NCBI GenBank assembly: GCA_030390025.1
Contig: CM059431.1
Span: forward strand, 123,258,001 to 123,322,000
Length of the DNA: 64,000 nt
Direction: 5' to 3'
Source: Squalus acanthias
Lineage: Eukaryota
This document shows positions 5,569 through 64,000 of this stretch, piece by piece (positions within the stretch are counted from its first letter, which is position 1; each line of letters starts with the position of its first letter). The translations under genes and the position numbers were made by a program. Under the pieces are notes generated by a model. That model ran no database searches and was not told the DNA's origin. It saw only the letters and a list, made by a program, of their open reading frames with translations.

Positions 5569-6702
5569 CTGGGGGCTGCACTGATTCGGGGTGTCATACT
5601 GCACCTGCAAAATCGGAGGCAACAGAGACGCAGAGAGAGAGTGGCAATCATGGCCAGACGGAGGAGGGCCAACAGGCCTCTGTACAGGAGACCTTACCCT
5701 CCCAGGGTATTCTGGGAACAATTCTCCTACATTAATTTGTCTGAGGAGCAGTGTTTGCACAGGCTGTGCTTCAGCAAGGAGGTGGTCACTGAGCTCTGCC
5801 ACCTGCTGCAGCCAGATTTGCAGCCTCAACTGAGGACCAGGACGTCTCTGTCGGTGGCAGTGAAGGTCACAGTGGCTCTGAATTTTTATGCCATCGGCTC
5901 CTTTTAAGCAGCTACTGGGGACATCGCCAATATCTCCCAGTTCGCGGTCCATTGCTGTATCCGTCAGGTCACAAATGCCCTCTATAAAAGGAGACGCCAG
6001 TACATCGCTTTCCCGATGACCCGGGCCAAACAGCATGAACGCGCATTGGGCTTTGCGAGGATAGCGGGCTTCCCCATGGTGCAGGGTGCCATTGACTGAA
6101 CGCATGTGGCAATGCGGGCACCGCATGAGAATGCAGAGGTTTTCCGAAACCGCAAGGGGTTCCACTCCTTAAACGTCCAGTTGGTCTGTAACCAGACAGC
6201 TGATACTCGCTGTCAATGCCCGCTATCCTGGCAGCAGCCACGATGCCTTCATCCTGTGCCAGAACTTTTCCAGGCACCGCATCAGCCAAGTGGTTGGCTC
6301 ATCGGGGACAAGGGTTATCCACTCTGCACCTGGCTAATGACACCGCTCCATAACCCCAACACCACTGCTGAGCTGCAGTACAATGAGAGCCATCTCACCA
6401 CCAGGAACATCGTTGAGCACACAATCGCCGTGCTCAAGCAACGGTTCCGCTGTCTGGACCACACAGGAGGAGCCCTGCAGTACTCTCCTGAGCGAGTCTC
6501 CCTCTTCATATTTGTGTGCTGCAGTCTTCATAACCTTGCAATCCTCAGGACCCAGCCAATGCCACCAGGCCTTGGAGCACCACCGGAGGAGGAGGAGGAA
6601 GAGGAGGAGGATCATCAGCAGCAGCACCAAGGCGGGAGGGGGGTCCACAATGTTGAAACTTCAAGGGCCGTCCGTCAACGGCTGATAGCAAGCCGCTTCT
6701 AG
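5569..6702 (+). pseudogene. HARBI1-like DDE transposase of H1 (disrupted)
   Basis: Motifs [72 protein letters not shown] and an acidic tail. Start codon appears as CTG (ATG in sister copies). Stops at 5905 and 6097 plus frameshifts. Confidence 0.9.
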
Positions 6703-6945
6703 GCCCCTACTGAGGAAATGGCTTCTGGCATGGAGAACAACATGAATGAAAGCAACCGGCAACCCCAAAGCCGGCCAAGGCAGCAATGATTCCCAAGGCC
6801 AAACCTGTACATTTTGAATACAAAACTTTTTTATTTTACAAACTCTGTGTGTATCATTTCATCATGACAAACTAATAGAAACAAACACAACAAATCATTA
6901 ATTAACATAACTGATTCTCACAACCTGGAGATAATGTCCAAAACA

Positions 6946-11425: not shown

Positions 11426-12180
11426 CTTGAGCCAGAAGTGCCAAGTGAATGATCCATCTCGGCCTTCTCCTTAGGTCCCCACCATCACAGAAGCCAGCCT
11501 TCTGCCAAAAGGATATCAATAAACGGCTGAACGCACTGGATACAGCAAAGGCTATGGGCCCCGACAACATCCCAGCTGTCGTGCCCCAGAACTAGCTGCG
11601 TCCCTCGCCAAGTTGTTCCAGTATCGATATAACACTGGTATCTACCCGACAAAGTGGAAAATTGCCCAGATATGTTCTCTCCACAAAAAGCAGGACAAAT
11701 CCAATCTGGCCAATTACCACCCCATCAGTCTACTCTCAATCATCAGCAAAGTGATGGAAGGTGTCATCGACAGTGCTGTCAAGCGGCACTTACTCACCAA
11801 TAACCTGCTCACCGATGCTCATTTTGGGTTCCACTAGGACCACTCGGCTCCAGACCTCATTACAGCCTTGGTCCAGACATGGATAAAAGAGCTGAATTCC
11901 AGAGGTGAGGTGAGAGTGACTGCCCTTGACATCAAGGCAGCATTTAACCGAGTGTGGCATCAAAAAGCCCTAGTAAAATTGAAGTCAAGGGGAATCAGGG
12001 GGAAAACTCTCCACTTGCTGGAGTCATACCTAGCACAAAGGAAGATGGTTGTGGTGGTTGAAGGTCAATCATCTCAGCCCCAGGACATCGCTGCAGGAGT
12101 TCCTCAGGGCAATGTCCTAGGCCCAACCATCTTCAGCTGCTTCATCAATGACCTTCCCTCCACCATAAGGTCAGAAGTGG
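11426..12180 (+). mobile_element. RT fragment of the second CR1-group LINE family (same family as 58659-60452)
   Basis: Near-identical to 60105-60452. Motifs ANYHPISLLSIISKVME, ALDIKAAF and GVPQGNVLGP. Confidence 0.88.
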
Positions 12181-13520: not shown

Positions 13521-13976
13521 AGCCTTGGTTCAGTGATAGCACTCTCACTTCTGAGACAGAAGATTGTGAATTCATAGTCCCACTCCAGAGATTTGAACAG
13601 ATAATCTAGGCAGACACTTTAGTGGAGTACCGAGGGAGTGCTTTATTGTCGGAATTGCAGTCTTAAGGATGAGACATTAAACCAAGACTCTGTCTGCCCT
13701 CTCAGGTGAACATAGAAGATCACATGGCACTATTTGAAAAAGAGCAGGGGTGCTCTTGTGTCCTGACTAAAATTTATCCCTCAACCAACATCACTAAAAC
13801 AGATTATCTGATCATTTATCTCATTGCTGTTTGCGGGACCTTGCTGTGCATAATTTGGCTGCTGCATTTCATTACATTACAACAGTGATAACACTTCAAA
13901 AAATATTTTGTTGGCTGTAAGGCACATTGGGTTGTCCTTTTATCACAAAAGGTGCTATATAAATGCAAGTTCTTTC
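13521..13976 (+). mobile_element. SacSINE1-like DeuSINE (tRNA head, Deu-like core, L2-type tail)
   Basis: Degenerate box A/B head, core TTGCTGTTTGCGGGACCTTGCTGTGC, and tail GCTATATAAATGCAAGT shared with the L2 3' end at 31820-31845. Confidence 0.8.
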
Positions 13977-19800: not shown

Positions 19801-19993
19801 AAAGAACTTTCAAATATGTTTTGTGACACTTAGTTCCTGCTTTTTCCTTTTTTAACACTTTACCTTTTACTCCATACCTTCTGTCCCTTCCTGACACGCT
19901 TTCCTCTGTCTCCCTGCTGAGGTGCCCAACCCCCTGCCACTTTAGTTTAAACCCTCCCCAACAGTACTTGCAAACACTCCCCCTAGGACAGCG
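16869..19993 (-). mobile_element. CR1 LINE, essentially complete ORF2 (APE endonuclease + RT) and 3' UTR
   Basis: Motifs YLNACS, AITETWL, VVYRPP, IMGDFN, SDHN, GVPQGSVLGP and FADD. Two in-frame stops (18677, 18179) and a frameshift near 17620. (TTCTTATG)n tail. Possible TSD GTATA. Confidence 0.95.
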
Positions 19994-20612: not shown

Positions 20613-21090
20613 GGGGGAGAAATTCAATTTATGGCTGCCCATTTTGCACCCATAAAATGGATGTTAGGCATCCAAAATCTGCATTGTGGTCTGTCCCACC
20701 CAATCTGGACGCAAAATACGCCAAACTTTATTGGCTTGGGTAATTTTTAGTTGTCCAGGACGCCCTGTCCTGCTCCTCCTAGCCTCACAAAGGAAAGTAA
20801 AAACTTTACCTAGATGAAACCATCAGCTTCCTGATCCTCTTCATGCTGGCCTTCACCTGTCTCGAAGGCCATTGCGGTCTTCCAGCACAGGCCAAAGTTC
20901 AAATCGCTGTTAGGGCCTGATGACATCATCAGATCCTGAATAAGATATGTGAATTAGGACCCCACTGCTTTAGGGAACGCCACCTGTCCAGAATTGTCTG
21001 TTAAAATCGTAAATGGTAGAGTCTAGGTGACTTTCCGATGGGTGAGTAACGAGGGGCACTTTAACTGTCTGCCCACCTGGTTTCCACCAC
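20613..21090. mobile_element. Truncated Harbinger-type non-autonomous element
   Basis: Left end GGGGGAGAAATTC is identical to the H1/H4 TIR core; no right TIR found. Confidence 0.5.
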
Positions 21091-21092
21091 GC

Positions 21093-21327
21093 TATGGCTC
21101 AGTGGTAGAACTCTCGCCTCTGAGTCAGAAGGTTGTGGATTCTAAATCCCACCCAAGGGCTAGAGCATAAATCTAGGCTGGCACACCAGTGTAGTACTGA
21201 GGGAGTGCTACACTGTCAGATGTTCAAGAAGGCGGCTCACCACCATCTTTTCAAGGGCAATTAGGGATGGCCAAAAATGCTGGACTTGCCAGCAACGCCC
21301 ACATCCCAGGAATGAATAAAAAAAACA
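21093..21327 (+). mobile_element. SacSINE1-like head joined to the 3' tail of the second CR1-group LINE family
   Basis: Head TGGCTCAGTGGTAG..CTCTGAGTCAGAAGG runs to 21221, then GTTCAAGAAGGCGGCTCACCACC...AATAAA-polyA, matching the tail at 55752-55870. Confidence 0.75.
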
Positions 21328-23171: not shown

Positions 23172-24337
23172 AGCCTCGATATTAAGCCCCCCAGGACCAG
23201 CGGGGGAGGGTCGGGGGTGGGGAGGGGAAGATATTAAAGACGTAAATACTTGGAACATGACCCAACATGCTTTTTAACGGCAGCGTCTATCGGGGTGTCC
23301 GAGTGTCCCGCAGTGGAAAAGCGTGACACTTCTTTAACATATTTAAATTGGCCTCCTTTAAATTGGAATCCAATTTAAAACTCACTGCTGCTGTGTGGGT
23401 TTTCCAGGGTTTGGGAAACTTGGCAGTGAAGGGGAGGTGGGAGCTGCCAGCTCCACAAGGTGAGTGCCTCTTTCAGCACTCCTTGTCTGCTGGGAGGAGC
23501 AGGAGTATTTCCCCCAGGCCCCTCAAGTAAGCGTTCGGCCTCCCCTAGCCCCGATCGCATCCTATCTCTCCCCCCTGCCGATCACGACCACTCTCTCTCC
23601 CCCGCCCTTCCCGACAATGGTCTCTCTCTCCCCCTGCTGATTGCAGACACTCTCTCCCCCCTCGCCAATCGTGTCTCATCTCTACCCCATACCGATCACG
23701 ACCACTCTCTCTCCCCCGCCCTTCCCGACCATGGTCTCTCTCTTCCCCTGCCGATTGCGGCCTTTCTCTACCCTGCAAATAGTGTTCCATCCCTCCCCCA
23801 CTCCTGATCACGGTCTCTCTCTCCCCTCTGCCAATTCCCGACTCTCTCTCTACCCTGCAGATAGTGTTCTCTCCCTCCCCCAGTACTGATCACGGCCTAT
23901 CTCTCCCCTCTGCCGATTCTGGCCTCTCTCACTACTCTGCAGATAGTGTTCCATCCCTCCCCTATTCCTGATCACGGCCTATCTCTCCCCTCTGCCGATT
24001 CCGGCCTCTCTCTACTCTGCAGATAGTGTTCTCTCCCTCCCCCACTCCTGATCACGGCCTATCTCTCCCCCCTGCCGATTGCGGCCTCTCTCCCTCCCTC
24101 CCGATCACGGCCCCCACCCCCCCTCCCGATTGCTGGGGACTGGCCGCCTGCGGCCTTCTGCCACTGGTGATCCCTCCCTGCTGCTGGCCTGGCTGTCTAT
24201 TTGGTCGGAAATAAAAAATGTTAATGAGGTGTTACCATTAAGTTCGGCAAGACCTCCGCTTCCCCGGCCTTGCTGGGTTTTTCATCCGTTTTCGCCGTCC
24301 CCTGCATTCTCCCCACCTCCCCATAAATATCAGGGCC
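23172..24337. mobile_element. Harbinger-type MITE with an internal minisatellite
   Basis: TIRs AGCCTCGATATT / AATATCAGGGCC; TSD AGG. Confidence 0.7.
23547..24132. repeat. Pyrimidine-rich minisatellite, ~27-bp subunits in an ~81-bp higher-order unit
   Basis: TGATCACGG recurs at 23805, 23887, 23969 and 24049. Confidence 0.85.
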
Positions 24338-29200: not shown

Positions 29201-29592
29201 GTCTAGCTCAGTTGGTAGCACCCTTGCCTCTGAGATAGAAGGTTGTGGATTCAAGCCCTGCGCCAGGCCTTGAGCCCATAATTTAGATTGATACTTCAAA
29301 GTGGTACTTAGGGAGTGCTGCATAATCAAATGTGCTGTCTTTTGAATGAGATGTTGAACTAGGTCCCCTCTTCAGCTGGATATAAAAGACCAGTGAGTTC
29401 TTCAGTTGTCTTGATCAGCATTTCTTCCCTGGTCGTTCATCTCATTTGCTATTTGTGGGACGTTGCACTGTACAAATTGGCTGCTACTTTTGCCAACATA
29501 ACAAAATGACTGCACTTCAAAAGTAACTTACTACCTGTGAGTGCTTTCGACATCTTGAGGATGTGCTACATAAATCCAAGTTCTTTCTTTCT
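29201..29592 (+). mobile_element. SacSINE1-like DeuSINE, degenerate
   Basis: Box A TAGCTCAGTTGG and box B-like GATTCAAGCC; colinear with 13521-13976. Confidence 0.72.
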
Positions 29593-36900: not shown

Positions 36901-37290
36901 GGAAGACTTACATTTATATGGTGCCTTTTACGACCTATGGGAACGCGGCAGCCAATTTGCGCACAGCAAGCTCCTACAGAGAGCAATGAAATAAATGATT
37001 CGATCATCTGTTTTAGTTGTTGGTTGACAGATAAATATTGGCCAGGACACCAGGAGTACTCCCTCGTTCTTCTTCGAAATAGTGCTGTGGGATCTTTTAC
37101 ACCCACCTGAGAGGGCAGAAGGGGCCTTGGTTTAACATCTCATCTGAAAGACAGTACCTCCAATAGGACAGCACTCCCCAGCACTACACTGAAGCGTCAG
37201 CTTGGATTATGTGCTCAAGTCTTAACAGAATGGGACTTGAACCCACAACCTTTTGACTCAGAGGCAAGAGTGCTACCACTGAGCCACAGC
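36901..37290 (-). mobile_element. SacSINE1-like DeuSINE
   Basis: Minus strand TGGCTCAGTGGTAGCACTCT...GGTTCAAGTCCC (boxes A/B), then core and tail. Confidence 0.8.
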
Positions 37291-37848
37291 ATGTGCCGAT
37301 AAGTCTCCAAGATGTGATCCTCCATGCCTGAAAGGCATTCTTCCATTTGTGTCATTGAAGCTTTGTTTTCTAGCATGCTTCAGTTCACAGTACTGGGCTG
37401 CAGGAATGCCACATTTTAAATTCTGCAGCTCTTCTACAAGTATTGTCTTCTGCTTCTGTACAGAATAAAGAACTGGTGAATGTGAAGGCCTTGCAGTAGC
37501 AGCAGACCCAGCAACTAGTCTGAATTTACCGTGAGTGAGTGAGTGATTGGTGTTTTTCCCTTCTTTTGTATTCTCAAATTCGAACTGAAGTACTCCGTGA
37601 GCTTAATGGCAGTGTAGGGAAAATGGCAGATTGTGAGCACAGACCAGAGCAATACTATAAGCCAAGGACAACAAGCCTGAACCCTCGAGCCACATGTCAA
37701 TCTGGTCCCGAGAGCCCAGTCTTATTTGCGTGAACATTTTTTATTGGCTAGTTCGTCCTCTTTGAATTTGGTGGGCCTGAAGGTTTGGAAAGTGCTGTTC
37801 TTCAGTCTGTTGCTTCTTCGGTGGATAAACCCTAAACATGGACACCAA

Positions 37849-40411: not shown

Positions 40412-40962
40412 GTTGTGGGTTCAAGTCCCACTCTAGAGACTTGAGCACAAATTTTAGGCTGTCACTCCAGAGCAATGCTGAGGGAGTGCTGCACTGTTGG
40501 AGGTGCCGTCTTTCAGATGAGATGGTTAACTGAGGCCCTGTCTGCCCTCTCAGGTGGATGTAAAAGATCCCATGGCACTATTTTGAAGAAGAGCAGGGGA
40601 GTTCTCCTCGGTGTCCGGGCCAGCATTTATCCTTCAACCAACATCACTAAAACAGATTCAAAAGCGAAATACTGCGAATGTTGGAAATCTGAAATAAAAA
40701 CAGAAAATGCTGGAAATACTTTGCAGGTCAGACAACATCTGCGGGAAAAGAAACAGAGTGAACGTTTCAGGTTACTGACCTTTCATCAGAACTTACTATC
40801 AGAACTGAAACCGATTATCTGGTTATTATCACATTGCTGCTTGTGGGACCTTGCTTTGCGCAAATGGTTGCAGTGTTTCCTACATTACAACCGTGCCTAG
40901 ACTTCAAAAGTACTTAATTGACTGTAAAGCACTTTGGAACATCCTGAGTCATGAAAGGCAAT
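40412..40962 (+). mobile_element. SacSINE1-like DeuSINE, 5'-truncated and interrupted at 40659-40803
   Basis: Colinear with the other copies from box B GGTTCAAGTCCC onward. Confidence 0.82.
40659..40803 (-). mobile_element. Short PLE-terminus insertion with a hammerhead motif (40757-40793)
   Basis: Matches 2440-2569. Minus strand CTGATGA-A-AGGT..ACCT-GAAACGTT. Flanked by ACTAAAACAGATT / ACTGAAACCGATT (11/13 TSD). Confidence 0.78.
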
Positions 40963-41191
40963 AAATGAGCGGCAGGAGACAGAGAGTAGGGATAATGGAC
41001 AGGTACTGTAATTGGCAGGTCATGACTAGTGATGTCCCACAGGGATCTGTTTTGGGGCCTCAACTATAAGTATTAACGACTTAGACGATGGGATAGAGAG
41101 CCACATATTCAAGTTTACTGATGACACAAAGATAGGCGGTATTATAAACTGTGAGGAAGCATAAAATTACAAAGAGATATTAATAGATTAA
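40963..41191 (+). mobile_element. CR1 RT fragment (target of H3)
   Basis: Reads VPQGSVLGPQL...KFTDDTKIG...LQRDINRL. Confidence 0.75.
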
Positions 41192-43995
41192 GGGGAAGAA
41201 ATTCGGTTGGTTAGCGCCTCCTGATAGCGCCTGGTGGGGCTGCTAATGGAATTCTAATGAAGTAGCGCCGGGGCGAGGTGAATCCAGCGCCGCACGCCAA
41301 ATCCAGTTGCCCCTTAGCGCCGCCGCTAACAGTTAGCGCCTGGGGTTTTAGCGCCAGCCAGATCACGACATCAGTGAGCGTGCAATGCTCACTCAGCGCC
41401 CGATCTCCCAAATTGATTATCGCCCCCTGCATTAGCGCCTCGCCCCGACAACGACAGGAAGAGGAGGCATGAAGCAGGCGGATGGCGGCTCAGGGGCGCT
41501 ATTTAAAGGGATGAGTCGCAGCTGTCAGGTTGGTACTGTTTCACTGCTTCCTTGTCACTTTGCGATTGTGCAGGTGTTTAATTCAGTCATTTAAAGGTTC
41601 TTTAGTATCAGGAGTGTTGTGGCTACTGAAAATTTGTTACATTTATACTGACAAAATTTCAAAGTGCGACACATTGTTACATTAATGGGGGCTGTACTGG
41701 CAGTCGACCTCACCCTCCAGGATCTACTGCGGAGGGAGCGGAGGCAGTGAGAAAGACTGTAACTCGTGGCCATAGGGAGGAGGAGAGCCATGAGGGCTCT
41801 CAATAGGAGGCCTTACCCTCCGAGGGTATTCTGACACCACTTCTCCTACTTCCAATTAAGTGAGGAGCAGTGTATTAGAAGGCTTTGCTTCAGCAAGGAT
41901 GTGGTCCCCGAACTGTGCCTTCTCCTGCAACCAGACCTCGAGCCTTAGATCAGGTCGACCACGGCTCTCTCAGTGGCAGTCAAGGTCACCGTTGCCCTCA
42001 ATTTCTTCGCCAGTGGTTCCTTCCAGTCTGCAACAGAAGATATAGCGAACATGTCGCAGTTCGCCGTCCTTCATTGCATCCAGGAAGTCACAGAGGCTCT
42101 CTACAGTAGGAGAAGGGATTACATTTCCTTCCCCATCACCAGAGAGAAACAGGACAAACATGCATGTGGCTTTGCCAGGATAGCAGGCTTCCCCGCAGTG
42201 CAGGGCGCCATTGACTGCACCCACATGGCTTTGAGGTCTTCCATAACCACAAAGGCTACTGATCACATAATGTGCAGTTGGTGTGCGACCACACACAGCG
42301 AATCCTCACCGTCAATGCCCACTATCCTGGCAGCAGCCACGAAGCCTTCAACCTGTGCCAGACCGGTGTTCCTGCACTCTTCCAGCTGCCACATCAAGCT
42401 CGTGGCTGGCTGGTCTGAGACAAGGGCTATCCGCACTCCACCTGGCTCATGACTCCCCTCCGCAACCCCAGCACTCCTGCTCAGCACTCATACAATGAGA
42501 GCCATGCTGCCACCAGGAATATCATCGAGCAGACCATCGGGGTGCTCAAGCAACAGTTCCGCTGCCTTGACCGCTCGGGAGGAGCCCTCCAGTACTCGCC
42601 GGAGCGAGTGTCCCATTTCTTCGTGGTCTGCTGCATGCTCCACAATCTGGTCATCATGAGGGCCCAGCCCTTGCCACCAGAGATTGCAGGACCACCTCAG
42701 GAGGAGGAAGAGGGAGAGGAGGAGGAGGAGGAGGAGGAGGAGAGGAAGTCAAGGAGGAGGAACAGGAGCGAGGGAGGAGGCATCCACTCAATCGGCCTTC
42801 TGAAAGGGAGGTCCGTGACCACCTCATCAGACTGCGGTTCCAATAAATTAAACCCCAGATCCCCGTTGCTCACCACATCCCCATCATTCCATCCCTGTCG
42901 CAGGCCATATCACAGCGCAAAGCTGAAATGAGAAACACCACAAAATCATCCAAAGCCAATTAATAGATTTATCAATAATCATTGAACACATATTTACAAA
43001 AACAATATTAGTTTTCACCCTTGTGCAATCCCTTAGTGCCCCTCGTTGCAGTGCCTTTGCCTACTCTAGTGCTCCTACGAAGTGTTGGCCCAGTGGCAGC
43101 AGCACGGCTGGTGGAAGGCTGCTGAGTGTCTGTGCGGGAGACTTCAGATGGCCTTGCAGGATGACCTCGAAATGCTCTGGGCCTAGAAGGCCCGGCTGTA
43201 GGCTGCATCACCTCGGCATGGGCGGCAGCAGTCTGGGCTGGCTGCATGACAGGCAGCAGCAATGGCACTGGTAGAATGGCAGTGGTGGGAGTAGGAATGC
43301 TGTAATCCTGAGAAAGGACAGCAGGTTCTTGCTTCACGGAGCCACTGCCACTTCTCCGGGGCGCGTCTCCGCATTCCTAGCCATCTGTTGGAGGGTGGAT
43401 TTCTAGACTGCTGTGAAACCCTGCACGAAGGCATCAGTCTGAGCTTGCGTGGTACCAAACTGAGCCTGCATAAGAGCAGTCTGAGCTTCCACTGCGGCAC
43501 TTAACCATTGGGTCACTTCCACTTGTGCTGCAATAGAAGCTGCAACATCACCCATCACACCCAGAATCATGGTTGGGTCCACAAGTGCTCTAATGGAGTT
43601 TCCCATCACTTCCATCCTGGAAATCATGGGCTGCAAGCTCCGCTCAAAGCCCCATGCAATGTTGGAGCCAGACTCTCCATGCGGCTTGACACTGACAAGA
43701 GGCTCGCTGGCAGGCCTGCCACCAAGCATTTCTGTGTGCATGCCCATCACCCTTCTTCTGAAAGTCACCCCATTGAAGTCCTCATCTGAGTTCTGTGCAG
43801 CAGAACTTGTGTGGGAACCCGCCCTCCAGGGAGCTGGCACCTGAACTACCCATTCCCCCTGGCCTGGCTGCAGCCCACACATGCCCGATGACTCACCATG
43901 TGCAGTTCCCCCCTCTAAAGTTTGCACAGTTCCATTTTCTGAGCTGGTGCCTGGGAGTGTCAGATCAAGTGATGCTGCCTCTTCTTCTCCATCAA
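41192..43995. mobile_element. Harbinger element H3 (same family as H4), truncated at the Myb end
   Basis: Starts TAA|GGGGAAGAAATTCGGTTGGTTAGCGCC. Transposase on plus and Myb exon 3 on minus (43008-43995). Intergenic region is nearly identical to that of H4. Confidence 0.88.
41685..42846 (+). pseudogene. HARBI1-like transposase of H3 (disrupted)
   Basis: Motifs MGAVLAVDL, VAVKVTVALNFFASGSFQ, GAIDCTH and [27 protein letters not shown]; several stops and frameshifts. Confidence 0.88.
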
Positions 43996-49005: not shown

Positions 49006-50777
49006 ATGATGGCAGATCCACACCCCAGGGAGAGAGCCCACAGATTCTGCGACCATGCATTGGAGGCATTGGTCTTCGTTGTGGGGAGACGGAGGGCGGT
49101 GCTGTGCCCAGCAAGTGCCAGGAGGCCATCGCCGTAAGTCTTCCGCACCATGTGGAGGGAGGGAGCCCAGCACGTCTCAGGCAGCACTGTGGTTGCCAGG
49201 ACACACACACAGTGCAGGAAGAAATTTAACAACCTCACTCGGGTGGTCAGGGTGAGTTAATGCTTCAACAAATGCTACATACCACCATCTGAACCACAGT
49301 CTGTTAAAGCACACTGTCAAAGCACCACACCCTCAGCACTCATCAACCAACAATCTCTACCTACCAAGATGCACACCCACATCTCACACCTTGCACACAA
49401 TGACAGCTATTCAACTATGGCAGGCACGTCACCCAAGCACATTGCTCCACACTCACTCACACACTTTCCTTTCTCTTGCAGGCCAAGGTGGCTCACAACA
49501 AGAGGGAGCAGGAGCGCACAGGTGGGGGACAAGCCGACACCCAACCACTGTCTGCGCTGGAGAATCGAGTGCTGCAGATTATTGGGTGCCAGGTGGTGGG
49601 CGCCGTGGCCACTGGTGACGTTGACCCCCTTGGGGACAACAACGGTATGTTCATCCCTGCTCCTTCTTCTCACATCCTACTTCCCCCTCACCCCACATGT
49701 GTTTCCCACTTTCCAGCTAATCATGCTGCATGAATGCATTTCTCCCTTCCTGCCCCCCTCCCCTCACCTTAACCCGACTCTTGTGCCTTTATGCTTTCAG
49801 ATAATGAGCAAGCACCTGAGCAGCCACTCCCTGAGGGCACCGTAGAGAGCGAGGCAGAAGAAGAGAAGGAGGAAGAAGACATCGTGTCACTGCATGTCTC
49901 ACCTGCAGGCAGCAGCTCAGATACTGGCACTACTCATTCTTTAGAGGCTAGTATAGTAGTGGGATCTGCACAGGGGACGAGCGGCTGCAGCAAGGCCAGG
50001 GGGAAAGGATAGTTCGGGGGCCAGCTCCACAGAGGGCGAATTCGCCCACGAGTTCTGCTGCACGTGTCTCAGATGAGGACCTTGATGGGGAGGCCTTTAG
50101 AAGAAGGGTGATGGGCATGCACACGGAGATGATAGGTGCAATGGCAAGGGTGCCCGAGAGACTCTTGGCAATGGAAAGGAGCATGGAGGAGTCTGCCTCC
50201 AACATTGCACAGAGTTCTGCGCACACCATGGAGTCCATCATTTCCAGTCTGCAAAGAGAGACCGTGGCGACCCAGACCTGATGCCGTGTGTGATGGGCGA
50301 TCTGGCAGCTTCCATTGCAGCACAAGCGGAAGTGACACAACTTCTTAGTGCTGTAATGCAGTCTATGGTTGGTGCCATTCAATCTCAGACTGCTCTCATG
50401 CAGTCTCAGCTTGATGCAGCACAAGCTCTGACTGCTGCCATCGTGGCTGTGTCTACCTCCATCCACCAGGGCTTGCACGGTGTCGCAGCAGCTTAGCAAT
50501 CTTGTCTGTATCACTGCCTGTCAACCAGCCAGCCCAGATTGCTGCCACCCATGCTGAGGTTGTGCAGTCTACAGCCGGGCCTTCCAGGCCCAGAGCTGGT
50601 CGAGGGCGTCCTGCAAGACCATCTGAAATCTCCCGCATGGATACTCAGCAGCCTTCCACCAGCCGTGCTGCAGTCACTGGGCCAACACTTTGTAGGAGCA
50701 CTAGAGTAGACAAAGGCACAGTAAGGAGAGGTAGTAAGGGATTGCACAAGGGTGAATATTTAATATTGTTGTTGTAA
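49006..50777 (+). pseudogene. Three-exon Myb/SANT plus coiled-coil gene of H4; exons 49006-49251, 49482-49644, 49801-~50777
   Basis: Same intron phases and same 163-nt exon 2 as H1. Stop at 49135 and frameshifts in exon 3. Confidence 0.85.
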
Positions 50778-50924
50778 ATATGTGTTCACTGATTATTGAT
50801 AAATTTATTAATTCAGTTTGGATGATTTTGTGGTGTCTTTCATTTCAGCTTTGCGCTGTGCTATGGCCTGCGACAGGGATGGAATGATGGGGATGTGGTG
50901 AGCAACGGGGATCTGGGGTTTAAT

Positions 50925-52105
50925 TTATTGGAACCGCAGTCTTATGAGGTGGTCACGGACCGCCCTTCCAGAAGGCCGATTGAGTGGCTGACTCCTCCCT
51001 CGCTCCTGTTCCTCCTCCTCCTCCTCGTCTTCCTCTTCCTCCTCATCCTCCTCTTCCTCCTCCTCTCCCTCTTCCTCCTCCTGAGGTGGTCCCGCAATGC
51101 CTGGTGGCAAGGGCTGGGCCCTCATGATGGCCATGATGTGGAGCATGCAGCAGACCATGACAAAATGGGACACCCGCTCAGCCGAATGCTGGAATACTGG
51201 AGGGCTCCTCCCAAGGGCTCAAGCCAGTGGAACCATTGCTCGATGATGTTCCTGGTGGCGGCATGGCTCTCATCATATGAGTGCTGGGCAAGAGTGTTGG
51301 GGTTGCGGAGGGGAGTCAGGAGCCAGGTGGAGAGCGGATAGCCCTTGTCTCCGACCAGCCAGCCGCGAGCTTGATGTGGTGGCTGAAAGAGTGCTGGCAC
51401 ACCGGTCTGGTGCAGGATGAAGGCATCATGGCTGCTGCCAGGATAGCAAGCATTCACATTGAAGATTCGCTGTCTGTGGTCGCACACCAACTGCACATTA
51501 AGTGAGTGGTAGCCTTTGCGGTTACGGAAGACCTCAGGATTGTTATGCGGTGCCCGCAAAGCCATGTGTGTGCTGTCAATGGCGCCCTGCAACATGGGGA
51601 AGCCCGCTATCCTTACAAAGCCATATGCACATTCGTGCTGCTTCTCTCTGTTGATGGGGAAGGAAATGTTGTCCCTTCTACTACTGTACAGAGCCACAGT
51701 GACTTCCCGGATGCAGCGATGGACGGCGAAATGTGAGATGTTAGCTATATCTCCTGTTGCAGACTGGAAGGATCCACTGGTGAAGAAATTGAGGGCGACA
51801 GTGACCTTGACTGCCAATGGGAGAGCCGTGGTCGCCCTGATCTGAGGCTCGAGGTCTGGTTGCAGGAGGTGGCAGAGTTCTATGACCACATCCTTGCTGA
51901 AGCGGAGCCTTCTAATACACTGCTCCTTGCTTAATTGGGGGTAGGAGAAGTGTTCTCGGAATACCCTCGGAGGGTAAGGCCTCCTGGTGAGAGCCCTCAT
52001 GGCCTTTCTCCTCCCTCTGGGCAGATGTTCCAGTCTTTCTCGCTGCCTCCACTCCCTCCACCATAGATCCTGGAGGGCAAGGTCGACTGCCAGAACAGCC
52101 CCCAT
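50925..52105 (-). pseudogene. HARBI1-like transposase of H4, least damaged copy
   Basis: Open through GAIDSTH, GSSHDAF, WLVGDKGY and TRNIIEQ. A short deletion after the catalytic E and a frameshift near 51180 precede the poly-E tail. Confidence 0.92.
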
Positions 52106-52869
52106 TAATGTAACCAAGTGTAGCACTTCGATATGTTGTGAGAATAAATGTAACTAATTGTTAGTAGCCACAACACTCCTGATACTAAATAACCTGTAAA
52201 TGACTGAGTTAAACTTTTGCACAATATCAAACTGACAAGGAAGCAGTGTTGCACACTCACTGATGTCACGATCTGCCTGGCGCTGAGGTCCCCAGTGGTA
52301 ACTGTTAGCGGCAGCGCTATGAGGGGCTGGATTTGGCGTGTGTCGCTGGATTTGTCTTGCCCCAGCACTACTGCATCAGTGTCCCATTAGCGCCCCTGCC
52401 AGTCACTAACTGAAGGCGCTAACCAACTGAATTTCTCCCCCTCAGAGTCTTGAAAGTCGAGCCTACCTTTATCTCCGGCCGCTTCTTGCGGTTAAAGTCT
52501 TTATTCACATGATTTCTTACAGTTATGTTAATTAGTTTAATTAGTTAAGTTAGAGAGACATAAACGATAATAATCATCCACTAATCACCTACCTGCAGTC
52601 CTGTGAAGTCACTCCTTGATTTTGCTGTTCTTTCGGAATTCGCCGGATTTGTATCTGCCTCCTCGCTGCTGCTGCCGACTCCTCGCAGGTCCGCGCTGTC
52701 CTCGGCTCCCGCTCTCTTTATTTTCTGCTGCCTCCTCGCTGCTGCTGCCAACTCCTCACAGGTCCCAGACATCTAAAAGGAAACTTCAAACTGCCTATGG
52801 TCTGCTCTATTAAACGTCTTATAGTCCTATTATCCTTGATCACCAGCCTGTCTATGGATGTCTTACTGG

Positions 52870-54608: not shown

Positions 54609-55751
54609 ATTGTTAGCAATGGGATTGTCTCAAAAGTGGAAAGTATTCTATTCTCCAAGACACTCATCCTTTCTTTGATTAGCTCAAAAATTCACCCCAC
54701 CAAAATTTCAAACATTATTTTGTTTACACTGATACTGTTATATGGACTATTTACTGTTTGTTTGTCTGTTTGTTAATGGTGAATGATAAAGCTCTCTCCT
54801 GTGTATATTCTATGTTATTACTGGTTACGTCTTCTGATTCTGTCTTATGTGGAAAACCAACTGGATTTATACTTTTTGACAAGTGAGCTTAAAGTAAACT
54901 TGTGGTGAATTTACTGCAATGGTTGAAGAGAGTTGACAAATGCAACATGCTGTGACACAGATCATGATCCTGATTCCTAATCCGTTGAGCCCCTGATCTC
55001 ATCCATGCTGTTGGGTCAAGCACCGAACAGAGGCCGAATGCTTTTCCACAGGGAGGTAGGGTAAGCCACCTCTTGTTGCTCTAACTTATCTCCTAGCAGC
55101 AGGTCACATAGCAGCATTGACAAAGGTTTGGGAACAAGTTCTTCATCCGTATTCTCACACAGTAATTGTGCATTACTCATGCAGACCTGAGAAACAGAGA
55201 GGAAAAATACAACTTCATTTAAGAAAGAAAAAAAGGAGAGTTCACGGTGAACAAATTTGCACTGTTAAATAATGAGAAATTGCTTCGTTTTAAAAAAATT
55301 ACAGACATACAATTAAATATTTTCAATAATAACGTTTAATAGCAGGTTCATTTGCATTACTTATTCATTCTGCTCCTGATTAATGTAGCATTGTGCCTAC
55401 TGTCACATGAAACGGATATAAATAGTTTGGTAAAATGGAAGAAAGGAAATTATTTCTGAAGCTTATAAGATATGTATAAGCCATTACATTCCAAATAAAA
55501 ATTAATAGGTTTCAAAAGAACAATCCTATTTATTGAAATAATGCAGTAGGTCAATAACAAAAATGCAGTCAAGTACTTGGTCAATACACATCTAGATCTC
55601 TACCCAGAACTCCAACCAAAGTGTCAGGGACACCATGGTTTCATTTGAAAGTGCATTCTCTTGGTTTTGTGAGCAGTTTTCTAAAAGAACTCCATACCAT
55701 AGGATTAATTAGTCTAGTTATTTAAATATTTTAATCCTGAATCATATGCAT

Positions 55752-56232
55752 GATTTTTTTTATTTATTTGTTCAAGGGATGTAGGCATCACTGGCAAGGC
55801 TGGCATATATTGCCCATCCCTAATTGCCCTTGAGAAGGTGGTGGTGAGCCGCCTTCTTGAACCGCTGCAGTCCTGTGGTGAAGGTATTCCCACAGTGCTG
55901 ACTTTGGTGTAACTAAGTGGCTTGCTAGGCTATTTCAGAGAGCAGTTAAGAGTCAATCACAGTGCTATGGGTCTGGAGTCACATATAGGCCAGACCAGGT
56001 AAGGACAGCAGATTTCCTTCCCTAAAGGATATTAGTGAACCAGTTGGCTTTTTTTGACAATCTGATAGTTTCATGGTCACCACTACTGAGACTATCTTTT
56101 TATTTATTTAATTAACTATATTTAAATTACCCCAGCTGCTTTGGTGGGATCTGAACTAATGTCTCGCTGGATTCATTAGTCCAAGGCCTCTGGATTACTA
56201 GCCCAGTAACATTACCACAATGCTACCATACC
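55752..56232 (-). mobile_element. tRNA-headed SINE made of the head/5' UTR and the probable 3' end of the LINE family at 58659
   Basis: 55910-56232 matches 58660-58870. The tail encodes LQRFKKAAHHHLLKGN* followed by AATAAA and an A-tract. Confidence 0.82.
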
Positions 56233-56543
56233 CATTGTGTGTGTGTTAAATTGTATTTTAAAATGTTAAATAATTAGCTTAACCTTAACAAGTATCAGTT
56301 CCATAAAAATAATGTCATGGAATGAAGCATGAAATTGTTACTAGTTTAGGGCAATATTGTCAGGAGATAAGAGCCTCACAATGCAATACAATATCATCCC
56401 AGACTGAAAATAAAAACATTTATTCCAGTTGTATGGCTATGAAGTTTCATTCAGAAAGGGCATGAGGAAGGCTGGTGTGAGAAATTAAAAATTTAGAACT
56501 GTTCTCGATTGCTGCTCTGCTGAAGACAGGGATAAGACACCTT

Positions 56544-58658: not shown

Positions 58659-60452
58659 GGGAACGGTAGCGTAGTGGTAATGTCACTGGGCTAGTAACGG
58701 TGACCATTAAACTATCGGATTGTCGTTAAAAACTCATCTGGTTCACTAATGTCCTTTAGGGAAGGAAATCTGCCGTCCTTACCTGGTCTGGCCTATATGT
58801 GACTCCAGACCCACAGCAATGAGGTTGACTCTTAATTGCCCTCTGAAATGGCCTAGCAAGCCACTCAGTTGTAACTAACTGCTATGAAACAAAATAATAA
58901 GAATGAAACCGGACGGACCACCCAGCATTGACCTCGGCACGCCCAGTCGACCATGCAAATTCCTCCTCACCAACATCTGGGGAATTGCGCCAAAACTGGA
59001 AGAGCTGTCCCACAGACTGGTCAAGCAACAGCCTGACATAGTCATACTCACAGAATCATACATTTCAGCCAATGTCCCAAACTCCTCCATCACCATCCCT
59101 GAGTAAGTCCTGTCTCACCGGCAGGACAGACCCACTAGGGGTGGTGGCACAGTGGTATACAGTCGGGAAGGAGTGGCCCTGAGAGTCCTCAACATTGACT
59201 CCGGACCCCATGAAGTCTCATGGCTTCAGGTCAAGCATGGACAAGGAAACCTCCTGCTGATTACCACCTACTGCCCTCCCCCAGCTGATGAATCAGTGCT
59301 CCTCCATGTTGAACACCACTTGGAAGAAGCACTGAGAGTAGCAAGGGCACAGAATGTACTCTGGGTGGGTGGGGGACTTCAATGTCCAGCACCAAGAGTG
59401 GCTCGGTAGCACCACAACTGACCGAACAGTCTGGGCCTGCGACAGGTGGTGAGTGAACCAACACGAGGGAAAAACCTACTTGACCTCGTCCTCACCAATC
59501 TACCTGTCGCAAATACATCTGTCCATGACAGCATTGGCAGCAGTGATCACCGCACAGTCATTGTGGAGATGAAGTCCCATCTTCACACTGAGTAACACCC
59601 TCCATCGTGTTGTGTGGCACTACCACCGTGCTAAATGGGATAGATCTAGCAGCTCAAAACTGGGCATCCATGAGGCGCTGTGGGCCATCAGCAGCAGAAT
59701 TGTATTCCACCACAATCTATAACCTCATGGCCCGGCATATCCCTCACTCTACCATTACCACCAAGCCAGGGGACCTACCCTGGTTCAACAAGGAGTGTAG
59801 AAGAGCATGCCAGGAGCAGTACCAGGCGTATCTAAAAATGAGGTGCCAACCTGGGGAAGCTGCAACACAGGACTACATGCATGCTAAAAAGTGGAAGCAG
59901 CATGCTATAGACAGGGCTAAGCGATCCCACAATCAACGGATCAGATCAAAGCTCTGCAGTCCTGCCACATCCAGTCGTGAATGGTGGTGGATCATTAAAC
60001 AACTAACGGGAGGAGGAAGCTCCATGAATATCCCCATCCTCAATGATGGTGGAGCCCAGCACGTGAGTGAAAAAGACAAGGCTGAAGCGTTTGCAACCAA
60101 CTTCAGCCAGAAGTGCCGAGTGGATGATCTATATCGGCCTACTCCCGAGGTCCCCACCATCACAGAAGCCAGTCTTCAGCCAATTCGATTCACTCCACAT
60201 GATATCAAGAAACGGCTGAGCGCACTGGATACAGCAAAGACTATGGGCCCCGACAACATCCCGACTATCGTGCTGAAGACGTGTGCTCCAGAACTAGCTG
60301 CACCTCTAGCCAAGCTGTTCCAGTACAGCTACAACACTGGCATCTATCCAACAATGTGGAAAACTGCCCAGGTATGTCCTGTCCACAAAAAGCAGGACAA
60401 ATCCAACCCGGCCAATTACCGTCCCATCAGTCTACTCTCAATCATCAGCAAA
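58659..60452 (+). mobile_element. tRNA-headed CR1-group LINE, 5' portion (APE endonuclease to early RT), no ORF1 visible
   Basis: Box A-like TAGCGTAGTGG at 58667. From 58903 the frames give TNIWG, DIVILTESY, VLWVG.DFN, LDLVLTN, SDH, PWFN and NYRPISLLS. Confidence 0.85.
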
Positions 60453-61292
60453 GTGAGTGGGCAAATACATGGCAGATGCAGTATAACGTGGATAAATGTG
60501 AAGTTATCCACTTCGGTAGGAAAAACAGAAAGGCAGAGTATTATTTAAATGGTGATAGATTGGGAAATGTTGATGTACAAAGGGACCTGGATGTCCTTGT
60601 ACACCAGTCACGGAAAGCAAACATGCAGGTGCAGCAAGCAGTTAGGAAGGCAAATGGTATGTTGTCCTTCATTGCAAGAGGATTTGAGTACAGGAGCAAG
60701 GATGTCTTACTACAGTTATACAGGGCCTTGGTGAGACCACACCTGGAGTACTGTGTGCAGTTTTGGTCTCCTTACCTAAGAAAGGATATACTTGCCATAG
60801 AGGGAGTGCAGCAAAGGTTCACCAGACTGATTCCTGAGATGGCAGGACTGTTGTATGAGGAGAGATTGGGTCGACTAGGCCTGTATTCACTAGAGTTTAG
60901 AAGAATGAAAGTGGATCTCATTGAAATGTCTAAAATACTGACAGGACTAGACAGACTGGATGCAGGGAGGATGTTTCCCCTGGCTGGAGGGTCTAGAACG
61001 AGGGGTCACAATCTCAGAATACGGGGTAGGAAATTTAGGACTGAGATGAGGAGAAATTTCTTCACTCAGAGGGTGGGGAACCTGTGGAATTCTCTACCAC
61101 AGAAGGCTGTGGAGGCCAAGTCACTGAATATATTTAAGAAGGAGATAGATAGATTTCTAGACACAAAAGGCATCAAGGGCTATGGGGAGAGAGCGGGAAT
61201 ATGGTATTGAGATAGAGGATCAGCCATGATCATATTCATATTGAATGGTGGAGCAGGCTCGAAGGGCCAAATGGCCTACTCCTGCTCCTATT
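60453..61292 (+). mobile_element. CR1 3' fragment joined directly to the preceding LINE
   Basis: Open frame WANTWQMQYNVDKC...LVRPHLEYCVQFWSP...GIKGYG, plus 3' UTR. Confidence 0.9.
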
Positions 61293-61781
61293 TTTTTCTA
61301 CATAATGGGCGGGTGTACAGAAGGGAAAGAAGAATTCCCAAGTATAAAAGGATTTGAGCTATGTTGGGAATTGGAAACTCTCAAGCTCTGCAGTCTGTCA
61401 AAAAGAAGGTTAAAGAGGGAATTCACTGTGGTATGTAAAATATCAAAATGTTATAGATAAAATTAAACCGAAATATTACTTTGAAGCAAATTGGAATACT
61501 GTAGTAGGATGAAAGGACATAAATTTAAATCAGTGAACAATAAACTTAGAACAAATATTCTGAAGAACTTTTTTAATGAAAGCGTGATAGATGTTCAGAA
61601 TAGTCTTCCAGGTAAAGTAACAGACATTGTGAATGCTCAAAATGTAGTAGGGTACTAGACTAGGAGTTAAGTCACTTGAAATGAGCTACAATAGGCCGAT
61701 GGCCTTTTCTTATTGTTACATTTTTTGGGGTCTTTTTAAATCTTCTTATACTAGATTATTTTGGCTCTTTTTTCTTATATT

Positions 61782-63519
61782 TGTACGGGGTTTTGTGTCG
61801 TGCTTGTATCTCAGACAGTGCTGGTGCGAGGTTAGGCCTTCGTTGCCTAATACTATTGCTTGCTCTGGTCTCCGGCCAGCCTTGTTGCAATAAGCACCTG
61901 TGAGTGGTTCAACCCACTCGCCCTTACGGTTCTAACACTGGACTTAGGTGCGAGAGCAGTAATGCAGAGAAAAACTCAAATAGACCCGGTTGAATAGTAC
62001 GAAATGGAAATCTTTATTGCATAGCGTCCAAAATCATGAAGTACATGTCATAGGTGCAAATTAACGAGAGTACAAGTATACATACATTCATAAAGCTTGG
62101 TCTATGGTAATGAAGAACGCACGGCACATCGTAAAAAGGGGAACACATTATACTTTATCCTTAATAAAACCACCCTCCCCTATCAATACCTACACTACAT
62201 CTAGATTTGTAGGATAGGGAAACATGCTCACCACTCGTGATACTTCGGAGAATTTTAAAGTGAGGCACTCGGCTCGTTTCGCTGCAGCGCCTGACTGTCA
62301 CGTGTTTGGAGGGGTCTCTGTACCCCACTTGTTTATCTTCGCTGCTGCGGCAAGCAGGCTGGGCTCCCCGTTGTCATGAAGAAACTCGACAGCACTCGGG
62401 CCCGGCTGTAGAATTCAAAGAAAAGTCTTCCTGTACCGACACCAGTTGTCGGTAGAATTCAAAGAAGAGTCTTTAACCGGTTCGTGCAGTAACTTGTAGA
62501 GTTCAAGAAATGGGTCGTATATTTTCGGGCGCGGGCGGGGTTTACTGACCGCGGCGGCACGTGGATTCTTCTTCTTCTCTTGTCATTTCGTCTTGTCTTG
62601 TTGGGCCTTCGGGTCCAAACACCGTTTACCGACTCTTGGGATGGTGCACCCGGTCACTGGCCTTCGTCGAGGCGACTCGTTCCAATTGAGCCCCACCCAA
62701 CATTCGAATAACCGTCCAGTGCGGCTAAAGTCCAGAGTCAACAGAGTCCAGAGAAAACACAGAAGGCTGCTCGTCCAGCAGAGCGATACCCGAGGATCGG
62801 AATGGGAGAATAAAAGTTCAGCCCGAGTCAAGAGTCCGCAGAGATAAGAGAGTCAAGCGAATAAGAGAGCGATGGACATTTGTTCACTATAGTTATAGTA
62901 CTGTGTTCCCTTATCTCCCGCCCAAATCTTAATGTTTGTCCTTTGTGAAATATTGGCGCTCAAAACTCCCAGCATGGGGTGATTCTTGTCTTTAACGGGT
63001 TTCGGTAGCACCTGAGACTGGCCAACTACCCGTTAATGTTTTCCCCATTGTTGGCCCAGCCAGGATCGTATGAATCGTCTCCCTGACTGGTTTTGGGGGC
63101 CCCCGAATACTTGTTTAATCACCCGAGAATGGCTCTCTCATTGTAGAGCCGTGGGGGTATTTGTATTTTGATGTGTCTGGATGGGCCTTCGATTGCCCAG
63201 TACAATGGTCCTTACTTGTGCATGGAAAACGATTCCAGCACTCATATCTTTTGCTATTGTCACAAATGCAAACAGGTTGCATCCTGTCTTTATCAGTGCT
63301 TATCGAGTATGATCCCGTCTTATTTTTAAAAATGTTTATTCGAACGCCATCTTGTCTGCCCACTGTACTTCTGGAAGCTTCTGCCACGATGCTCGGCGGC
63401 CATTTTTTTACAGGCTTCTGTGTCCTTTATATCATGACAGCATTTTGTTTAAATAAACTGATCAAACGAATCTGCTTCTATCTTGTTATTTCGAATCGCG
63501 ATAATTGCGAAACTTTACA
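61782..63519 (-). mobile_element. Probable solo LTR (1738 bp)
   Basis: TGTA...TACA termini with TSD TATT. On the minus strand: CCAAT (62952-62956), TATAAC (62892-62897) and AATAAA (62013-62018). CpG-rich relative to the flanks. Confidence 0.6.
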
Positions 63520-64000
63520 TATTGTTCTAATTGGTGAGTCACAACTCCTAATACCTGAGAGTGTCGATTCTTACTTAGAGATGTAGGTAAGTAAAGTACC
63601 TGAGAAAACAGTGAGAAAATCCTGTTTGGTAATTACTATAAGCTACTGGAGTATCCTATGTCTCTTGTGGACTATTTTGTTCAGTCTTCAAAAGTGGAGG
63701 AGAAGCACAACAGACTTGTTTCTTAACTTAATATATCGAGTGAGTTTATTAAACAGCAAACTAATTAACAATCTATAGTGATATCATACAGTCATGTTTA
63801 CAGTAGTCAATATTTTATCTAACTACTTGAGTAGACAAAATAATAAGTCATAATCTGATACTAAGCCTTCTAATAAATGTAGTCCTTTTTATTTTTACAA
63901 TCTTTTTTAAATTCAGGAGTTAGCTGATCTACCTCATCAACTCATCAAACAGATCCAGCCAATTAAATACTGGCTGCCATGGTGTGTTTCTATTTTTCAT

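What the first reader, a model, noticed from the sequence alone, without database searches (positions are those of the whole stretch)
58659..60452. tRNA-headed, ORF1-less LINE with its own deletion-derived SINE in the same window
Seen: the APE-RT frame starts at 58903, about 240 nt after a tRNA-like box A head, leaving no room for ORF1. The same head and UTR form the 5' part of the SINE at 56232-55910, which then jumps to a LINE-like C-terminus and tail. The LINE copy has lost ~110 nt including box B, apparently via AGTA microhomology at 58697. Known: CR1-group LINEs normally carry ORF1 and a Pol II UTR, and SINEs usually share only the 3' tail with their LINE. Inference: an autonomous single-ORF LINE with a Pol III-type head, whose internal deletion produced a SINE.
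Basis: partly seen in the sequence, partly recalled or inferred. Interest (0 to 1): 0.7.

Follow-up and report, generated by a model that had tools for sequence, protein, structure and literature searches.

The report
Shark Zenon LINE with tRNA head

Summary
Observation largely confirmed. 58659-60456 is the decayed 5' 1.8 kb of an elasmobranch Zenon LINE (CR1 group). Its RT core and tail are missing, and an unrelated CR1 piece follows. Lack of ORF1 is already published for Zenon (PMC13343379). The head-ORF junction is family-wide: all 7 shark and ray Zenon consensi in that paper's supplement open with the same tRNA-like head (boxes A and B), while the 3 hagfish and coelacanth ones do not. The paper's main text never mentions tRNA. 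The coding strand avoids oligo-T (TT observed/expected 0.50; 74 control LINE loci 0.81-1.30), also at synonymous sites, as a Pol III template should. The 480-nt copy at 56233-55754 is head + UTR + last 27 codons + poly(A) tail. Contigs from three organisms show many different UTR-to-tail breakpoints, so it looks like one of many deletion derivatives, not a proven SINE family. Pol III transcription is inferred (about 0.55), not shown, and how the RNA is translated is open. The scan noted this family before on other pieces of the same genome.

The parts
58659..58697 (+). 5' part of the tRNA-like head: box A (58667-58677), D-arm region and the first half of the anticodon arm with its loop
   Evidence: 39 of 39 nt identical to the start of SquAca_Zenon-1 (by eye); box A match
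58693..58698 (+). Deletion scar: 112-114 nt lost (variable arm, box B, A/T-rich spacer), microhomology AGTA(A)
   Evidence: pairwise alignment with the short copy; consensus compared by eye
58698..58902 (+). Rest of the 5' UTR (body), conserved across shark and ray Zenon; 6 upstream ATGs in this copy's UTR
   Evidence: no Deu or Meta motif
58903..60456 (+). Decayed 5' part of the single APE-RT ORF (endonuclease, linker, start of RT up to NYRPISL); stop at 59104-59106 and 4 frame breaks; no T4 run
   Evidence: tblastn with full-length relatives; blocks; best hit 86% to a Heptranchias protein; T-run counts
60453..61296 (+). Not part of the element: 3' end of a canonical CR1, joined with a 4-nt overlap (GTGA); it stands where the Zenon RT core and tail should be
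   Evidence: 70% identical to the CR1 copy at 17760-16884; junctions
55911..56233 (-). Short copy: whole tRNA-like head (decayed boxes A and B) and whole 5' UTR
   Evidence: weak Rfam tRNA alignment 56232-56137, 14.3 bits, E 6.2, below the gathering score; sharp 5' boundary at 56233 in contigs
55901..55910 (-). 10-nt filler at the internal junction, matching neither side
55754..55900 (-). Short copy tail: last ~27 codons of the Zenon ORF (1-nt deletion at 55873), stop at 55822-55820, 3' UTR, poly(A)
   Evidence: frames; match to the C-terminus of full-length relative P0003 (E 0.003 pairwise); 83% to tail piece 21212-21325; loose ends and indel
11426..12180 (+). Second, 5'-truncated Zenon piece that runs on into the RT core; used for the tree and the T-run test
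   Evidence: 81% to 60101-60456

Best explanation
Both pieces come from the elasmobranch Zenon LINE, a ~3.3-kb single-ORF (APE-RT), poly(A)-tailed CR1-group retrotransposon. In the shark and ray lineage it acquired a tRNA-derived head as its 5' end (shown at family level). Most likely the internal boxes A and B recruit RNA polymerase III, which starts at the first base of the head and reads through 3.3 kb because the sense strand has been purged of oligo-T terminators (inferred). The ORF2 protein binds the 3' tail and inserts the RNA by target-primed reverse transcription (established for the group, not tested here). Because promoter and tail sit at the two ends, any deletion or template jump that removes the middle yields a ready-made SINE. 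This has happened many times with different breakpoints, and 56233-55754 is one such product (structure shown, direction inferred). How the protein is made from an RNA with many upstream ATGs and, if Pol III-made, no cap is open: internal initiation or reinitiation, or supply in trans from copies read through by Pol II. Both copies here look inactive: one lost box B, its frame and its tail, and the other has decayed boxes.
For: 7 of 7 shark and ray Zenon consensi (5 species) begin with the head, all 7 fit box A, 6 of 7 have a clean box B, and 6 of 7 show the ATG at about position 304-357. 0 of 3 hagfish and coelacanth consensi do (by eye on the first 400 characters). Box A lies at +9 from the element's first base, the tRNA register. 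The variable-arm stem differs in sequence between dogfish and white shark, whale shark and catshark consensi but still pairs (by eye). Sharp 5' boundary: summed depth falls from 50,000-120,000 to 25-87 across 56233-56240 in 3 of 3 contig runs, and 293 contigs in X13 have unrelated flanks there (agreement 0.33). Oligo-T avoidance: 58903-60456 has TT o/e 0.50, 2 T3+ runs against 8.9 expected and 0 T4+. 74 control LINE loci (of 80 fetched, those with at least 1200 nt of match) give 0.81-1.30 and none has zero T4+. The window's 5 CR1 pieces give 0.94-1.25. With the protein held fixed (653 in-frame codons), TT is 48 against 69.5 (0 of 2000 recodings as low) and T3+ is 4 against 10.8 (p 0.003). Both ratios are below all 66 control ORFs (minima 0.76 and 0.52). 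A, C and G runs are not comparably depleted. Tree of 53 RT-region sequences: the window Zenon falls in a 19-member clade (support 0.985) with Colias and Hydra proteins, apart from the window's CR1. The 15 best-supported of 815 joints all link the UTR end (55911-55936) to the ORF end or 3' UTR (55830-55861) at different places, each in 1-7 contigs of summed depth 12-217, against 12-22 for single-copy flank.
Against: No RNA, ChIP or promoter data were obtained. The T4 count itself is not significant once the protein is fixed (1 against 1.3), and against dinucleotide shuffles 0 T4 is expected 65% of the time. The signal lies in TT and T3, which Pol III termination does not strictly require. The second copy is less depleted (TT o/e 0.80, one T4). 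The controls are distant relatives (22-53% identity) from other, mostly more T-rich genomes, not head-less vertebrate Zenons. The dogfish consensus has 8 upstream ATGs (by eye). The Pol III RNAs in the review passages read are about 90-340 nt and non-coding. The tRNA model score is weak (14.3 bits), ARAGORN finds no tRNA at default settings and the head's fold is not better than shuffles (z -1.4). Contig depth is not copy number, and high-copy junctions may break into pieces too short to be called as joints.
Confidence: 0.55

Rival explanations
1. Pol II element with a captured head. The tRNA-derived head is fixed at the 5' end but the RNA is made by Pol II, from a promoter in the UTR body or by read-through from host genes. 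The tRNA-like fold serves as a processing signal (RNase P-type cut that defines the 5' end), a stability element or a translation element. T-run scarcity then reflects avoidance of splice-acceptor or U-rich signals.
For: LINEs and their bipartite derivatives are taken to be Pol II units (Kojima 2018; Wang 2019). The depletion is strongest for TT and T3, not specifically T4. Arm pairing is kept between species (by eye). A capped RNA eases the translation problem.
Against: Boxes A and B are kept at tRNA spacing across sharks and a ray. CR1 LINEs in the same window and 74 other LINE loci show no such T avoidance. 8 upstream ATGs hinder cap-dependent scanning as well.
Confidence: 0.3
2. SINE first. 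A tRNA-headed SINE with a Zenon tail existed beforehand and gave its head and body to the LINE by template switching. The short copy is a member of that original SINE family, not a deletion product. (This concerns direction only and is compatible with either polymerase.)
For: Hagfish and coelacanth Zenons lack the head, so it was gained from somewhere. Module exchange among SINEs is well described. The short copy is old: it is present at the orthologous site in organism A, whose flanks differ by about 5%. One junction (55832 to 55916) recurs in all 3 organisms (1, 3 and 7 contigs).
Against: A founding SINE family should have one dominant junction. The 15 best-supported joints differ, and none exceeds summed depth 217. 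Letters compatible with this copy's filler at 55909 make up at most 1,057 of 179,559 (X1), 398 of 10,118 (X5) and 1,759 of 98,151 (X13) of the depth at the UTR end. The body has no Deu or Meta motif and no UCON3 likeness by eye.
Confidence: 0.3
3. Chance neighbours: a SINE landed just upstream of a 5'-truncated LINE at this locus.
For: No target-site duplication and no tail at this locus.
Against: The same head-UTR-ATG junction is in published consensi from 5 species. 85-92% of the contig depth that runs past the UTR end carries the LINE-type next letter.
Confidence: 0.01

Closest known systems
Elasmobranch Zenon LINEs (SquAca_Zenon-1/2/3, CarCar, RhiTyp, ScyCan, HypSab; Stuart et al. 2026, PMC13343379)
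   Same: Same family: 39 of 39 nt at the start and about 95% over the next ~240 nt to SquAca_Zenon-1 (by eye); single ORF, no ORF1, poly(A) tail, about 3.3 kb
   Different: Nothing in sequence. The paper's main text has 0 occurrences of 'tRNA', 'promoter' or 'polymerase III', so the head, the T-run avoidance and the short derivatives are not discussed there
Persaeus SIDE and lepidopteran Zenon (Wang et al. 2019, PMC6740152)
   Same: Non-autonomous derivative made of the Zenon 5' end plus ORF end, 3' UTR and poly(A)
   Different: Persaeus has no tRNA, 5S or 7SL homology and no Pol III promoter; here the parent LINE itself carries the tRNA head
Bipartite LINE-derived SINEs: Bov-tA/BovB, Mar-1, AfroSINE, WALLSI2, SINE2-1_ACar/Vingi (Kojima 2018, PMC5786205)
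   Same: tRNA head + LINE 5' part + LINE 3' part
   Different: There the head is added to an already deleted, non-coding LINE, and only the RTE, Ingi, Vingi and R2 clades were listed. Here the head is on the full-length coding CR1-group element
SacSINE1 and LmeSINE1 Deu-SINEs of cartilaginous fishes (Luchetti et al. 2017, PMC5499810)
   Same: tRNA-headed repeats of sharks
   Different: Those have a Deu domain and an L2 tail. The Deu motif hits only another SINE family in this window (3 of 3 hits), and the tail here is Zenon

Membership tests
Zenon (CR1 group) | RT groups with Zenon, apart from canonical CR1 | tested here: met
   on a 192-aa partial RT from the second copy, with unnamed, Colias and Hydra proteins standing in for named references; near identity of the 5' end to SquAca_Zenon-1
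Zenon (CR1 group) | No ORF1; single APE-RT ORF | tested here: met
   ATG 244 nt from the 5' end here and about 304-357 nt in 6 of 7 consensi; APE similarity starts at 58948
Zenon (CR1 group) | Poly(A) tail | tested here: met
   met on the short copy (55754) and on tail piece 21212-21325; the tail is missing from the LINE copy itself
tRNA-derived SINE (SINE2) | tRNA-derived head with boxes A and B | tested here: met
   boxes clear in the consensi, decayed in the short copy; Rfam tRNA match only 14.3 bits; parent tRNA not determined (loop reads AGT, long extra arm)
tRNA-derived SINE (SINE2) | Tail shared with a partner LINE | tested here: met
tRNA-derived SINE (SINE2) | Many copies with one fixed structure | tested here: inconclusive
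   many junctions, each at low depth; contigs may hide high-copy junctions; no genome held
tRNA-derived SINE (SINE2) | Transcribed by Pol III | not testable with these tools
   only indirect:
tRNA-derived SINE (SINE2) | Target-site duplication | tested here: not met
   none seen by eye in the flanks; old copies often lose them, and Martelossi 2024 did not require one
DeuSINE (SacSINE1) | Deu domain | tested here: not met
   one motif with up to 3 mismatches: 0 of 3 hits in this element; alignment compared by eye
MetaSINE | 66-bp Meta domain | tested here: not met
   one motif: 0 hits in the window; consensus compared by eye
UCON3-domain SINE | UCON3 domain | tested here: not met
   two rows compared by eye only
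CORE-SINE and V-SINE | CORE or V domain | not tested
   no reference sequence came from a tool

The most novel reading that the evidence does not exclude
An autonomous, protein-coding LINE that switched from Pol II to Pol III by capturing a tRNA promoter, recoded its whole 3-kb ORF to avoid oligo-T terminators, has kept this design since before sharks and rays split, translates an uncapped RNA by an internal route, and repeatedly throws off ready-made SINEs by losing its middle.
Probability: 0.4. Interest if true: 0.87.

Novelty: new variant of a known kind. Interest (0 to 1): 0.62.

Why it matters
The usual split is that LINEs code for protein and use Pol II while SINEs are non-coding and use Pol III. 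This family has a SINE-type promoter on a coding LINE, with a sequence signature that fits Pol III read-through. If confirmed it would be a natural multi-kilobase Pol III mRNA, which makes translation of such RNA testable. It would also give a direct route for SINE birth (delete the middle of a headed LINE), the reverse of the published order in which a head is added to a deleted LINE. The family has hundreds to thousands of long copies per genome (2313 in white shark, 1419 in whale shark), so the tests are practical.

Tried and rejected
No genome is held for the window, so no copy catalogue or target-site survey could be made. Pfam: 0 families on 5 broken frames. Rfam at gathering: 0. ARAGORN default: 0. 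Pattern scans for the UTR end found 0 in metagenome contigs and 0 in viral contigs. My first guess that the body is the Deu domain of SacSINE1 was rejected, as were Meta and UCON3. No head or UTR likeness near the 5' ends of 80 distant LINE loci (best blastn E 0.03 in an A/T-rich stretch). Relaxed ARAGORN calls on those loci were treated as noise. Raw-read run X23 laid only 25 reads of 10 million and was not used. The codon test held out-of-frame and overlapping stretches and was replaced. The tree script failed at display and was rerun with FastTree. Folding of head, tail and UTR end gave no significant z-scores (-1.4, 0.19, -0.61). Ten literature searches showed no paper describing a tRNA-headed autonomous LINE. 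The library lacks most subscription papers, and Repbase and Dfam entries could not be searched.

Full report
Setting. The window is elasmobranch-like: the best protein hits of the LINE frame come from Heptranchias (86%), Pristiophorus, Heterodontus and Mobula. No whole genome is held, so evidence came from the window, published consensus sequences, public contigs and distant LINE loci.

The observation. A box-A motif stands at 58667-58677, 9 bases into an element that begins at 58659. The first ATG of the endonuclease frame is at 58903, 244 nt downstream, and similarity to full-length APE-RT proteins starts at 58948. The head and UTR recur on the - strand at 56233-55911 (87% over 39 nt and 89% over 178 nt). 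The short copy continues through a 10-nt filler into about 27 codons that end the ORF, then a 3' UTR and poly(A) at 55754. The last codons match the C-terminus of full-length relative P0003, and contigs that leave the stretch at 55872-55873 carry the same ORF end without this copy's 1-nt deletion. Two corrections. The LINE frame is broken by one stop and four frame breaks, and it ends at 60456, before the RT core. What follows (60453-61296) is a canonical CR1 3' piece, 70% like the copy at 17760-16884, joined with a 4-nt overlap. Either a template switch or an insertion with deletion could give this; I cannot tell which. No target-site duplication was seen.

What family. A tree of 53 partial RT sequences puts the window's second copy (11601-12176) in a 19-member clade (support 0.985) with Colias and Hydra proteins, apart from the window's CR1. 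Stuart et al. 2026 (PMC13343379; main text parts 1-4 of 8 read) report Zenon elements in five elasmobranchs, coelacanth and hagfish, and state that all Zenons lack ORF1 and have a poly(A) tail. So the lack of ORF1 is known. Their supplementary Table 2 shows the first 400 characters of 10 vertebrate Zenon consensi. All 7 from sharks and a ray begin with the same head and UTR as the window, and the 3 from hagfish and coelacanth do not. SquAca_Zenon-1 is identical to 58659-58697 over 39 nt and about 95% alike over the next ~240 nt (by eye). The window copy lacks 114 nt of it between two AGTAA words. In 6 of 7 the ATG follows at about position 304-357; the seventh consensus is degenerate there. 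This refutes the chance-neighbour reading. The main text has no occurrence of 'tRNA', 'promoter' or 'polymerase III'.

The head. All 7 consensi fit box A and 6 have a clean box B, at tRNA spacing with a long extra arm. The extra-arm stem differs between dogfish and the other sharks yet still pairs (by eye). In the decayed short copy the Rfam tRNA model aligns from the element's first bases but scores only 14.3 bits (E 6.2). ARAGORN finds nothing at default and the fold is not significant. The loop reads AGT (Thr), while the long arm resembles Ser or Leu tRNAs (recalled), so the parent tRNA is undetermined. The body has no Deu or Meta motif and no UCON3 likeness by eye. It is not SacSINE1, which has a Deu domain and an L2 tail (Luchetti 2017, PMC5499810, parts 1-3 of 6 read; its supplement was not available). 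In contigs of three organisms the summed depth drops from 50,000-120,000 to 25-87 at the head's first base, and 293 contigs in one run have unrelated flanks there, so copies start at a fixed point.

Test for Pol III. Pol III stops at oligo-T on the non-template strand (PMC10498592, passages), so a 3.3-kb Pol III unit must avoid it. 58903-60456 has TT observed/expected 0.50, 2 runs of three or more T against 8.9 expected, and no T4. The 74 control LINE loci (of 80 fetched, those with at least 1200 nt of match) range from 0.81 to 1.30, and none has zero T4. The five CR1 pieces in the same window give 0.94-1.25. With the protein held fixed over 653 in-frame, non-overlapping codons, TT is 48 against 69.5 (0 of 2000 recodings as low) and T3+ is 4 against 10.8 (p 0.003). 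Both ratios lie below all 66 control ORFs. Phe makes up 12 of 653 codons, against a control minimum of 2.6%. Against this reading: T4 itself is 1 against 1.3, the second copy is less extreme (0.80), the controls are distant and mostly richer in T, and other constraints on U-rich RNA could give the same pattern. The UTR holds 6 upstream ATGs here and 8 in the dogfish consensus (by eye), so translation needs an unusual route under either polymerase.

The short copy. Laying four runs on 55640-56340 showed that run X5 matches both flanks without mismatch, and that X1 (another organism, flanks about 5% different) has the element at both ends, so the insertion is old. Of the depth that runs past the UTR end at 55909, 92%, 85% and 82% (X1, X5, X13) carries the LINE-type letter; the range 85-92% given elsewhere in this report covers X1 and X5. 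What could match this copy's filler is at most 0.6%, 4% and 1.8% of the depth at 55915. The tool found 815 joints and showed 15. All 15 join the UTR end to the ORF end or 3' UTR, each at another breakpoint pair, with 1-7 contigs and depth 12-217 against 12-22 for single-copy flank. One (55832 to 55916) recurs in all three organisms. None of the 24 long pieces listed crosses this copy's junction. This fits repeated internal deletion better than one SINE family. A fixed high-copy junction could still be hidden, because contigs break in repeats and only joints with both sides inside the stretch can appear. X23 laid 25 reads and was set aside.

Comparison. Persaeus is a deleted derivative of lepidopteran Zenon without any tRNA head (PMC6740152, passages). 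Kojima 2018 (PMC5786205, passages) lists bipartite derivatives only for RTE, Ingi, Vingi and R2, takes them to be Pol II units, and has the tRNA head added afterwards. Bivalve SINEs use CR1-Zenon tails only (PMC11481361, passages and supplement search). Also seen: PMC4824008 (parts 2-3 of 6; one supplement file not searched) and PMC7245038 (passages, part 2 of supplement 1 and search hits). Ten searches showed no description of a tRNA-headed autonomous LINE. Repbase, Dfam, the Zenodo files and subscription papers were out of reach, and the full consensi beyond 400 characters could bear on the T-run claim.

Earlier notes. A look-up by sequence found nothing. Look-ups by words and by place showed 8 of 14 fitting notes on other pieces of this genome that describe the same family, several with T-run scarcity and several calling the short forms the LINE's SINE. 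They are unchecked AI notes, were seen after my tests, and are not counted as support. My contig result qualifies the one-SINE-family wording.

Verdict. A real, family-wide and apparently unremarked architecture in a known LINE family: a new variant of a known kind. Headed single-ORF unit about 0.97; Pol III transcription about 0.55; short copy as a deletion product about 0.7. Interest 0.62.

Noticed in passing
window 58797-58802 and 58848-58856: Two tiny upstream frames in the UTR, a start-stop (ATG TGA) and Met-Ala-stop, are kept in 7 of 7 and 6 of 7 elasmobranch consensi (by eye). They are possible reinitiation elements.
   Followed up: no
P0064 (printed): A 121-aa gene model from an unnamed eukaryote joins a peptide read from the UTR body to the endonuclease N-terminus, another place where UTR and ORF are neighbours.
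   Followed up: partly
window 13526-13930, 21088-21223, 29206-29522, 36942-37293, 40412-40937: A second tRNA-headed SINE family with box A and a Deu-like motif, probably SacSINE1-like. The copy at 21088 runs directly into a Zenon tail (21212-21325), a possible tail exchange or nested insertion.
   Followed up: partly
window 11077-12180: A CR1 piece (11077-11425) abuts a 5'-truncated Zenon piece (11426-12180), which is in turn cut by a T-run at about 12182. This is the mirror of the Zenon-CR1 join at 60453-60456.
   Followed up: partly
window 16884-19813 (-): Nearly whole ORF2 of a canonical CR1 with only 3 stops in 2109 nt of one frame.
   Followed up: partly
window 61740-63520: A stretch richer in G+C with short direct repeats (near 62408 and 62454) and no copy elsewhere in the window; possibly an LTR-type or other repeat fragment.
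   Followed up: no
window 23539-24133 and 41191-43875 / 49983-52442: A C/T-rich minisatellite region (27, 82 and 114-nt periods), and a pair of inverted 85%-identical repeats with AGG/CTC triplet tracts, with a third copy at 5614-8679.
   Followed up: no
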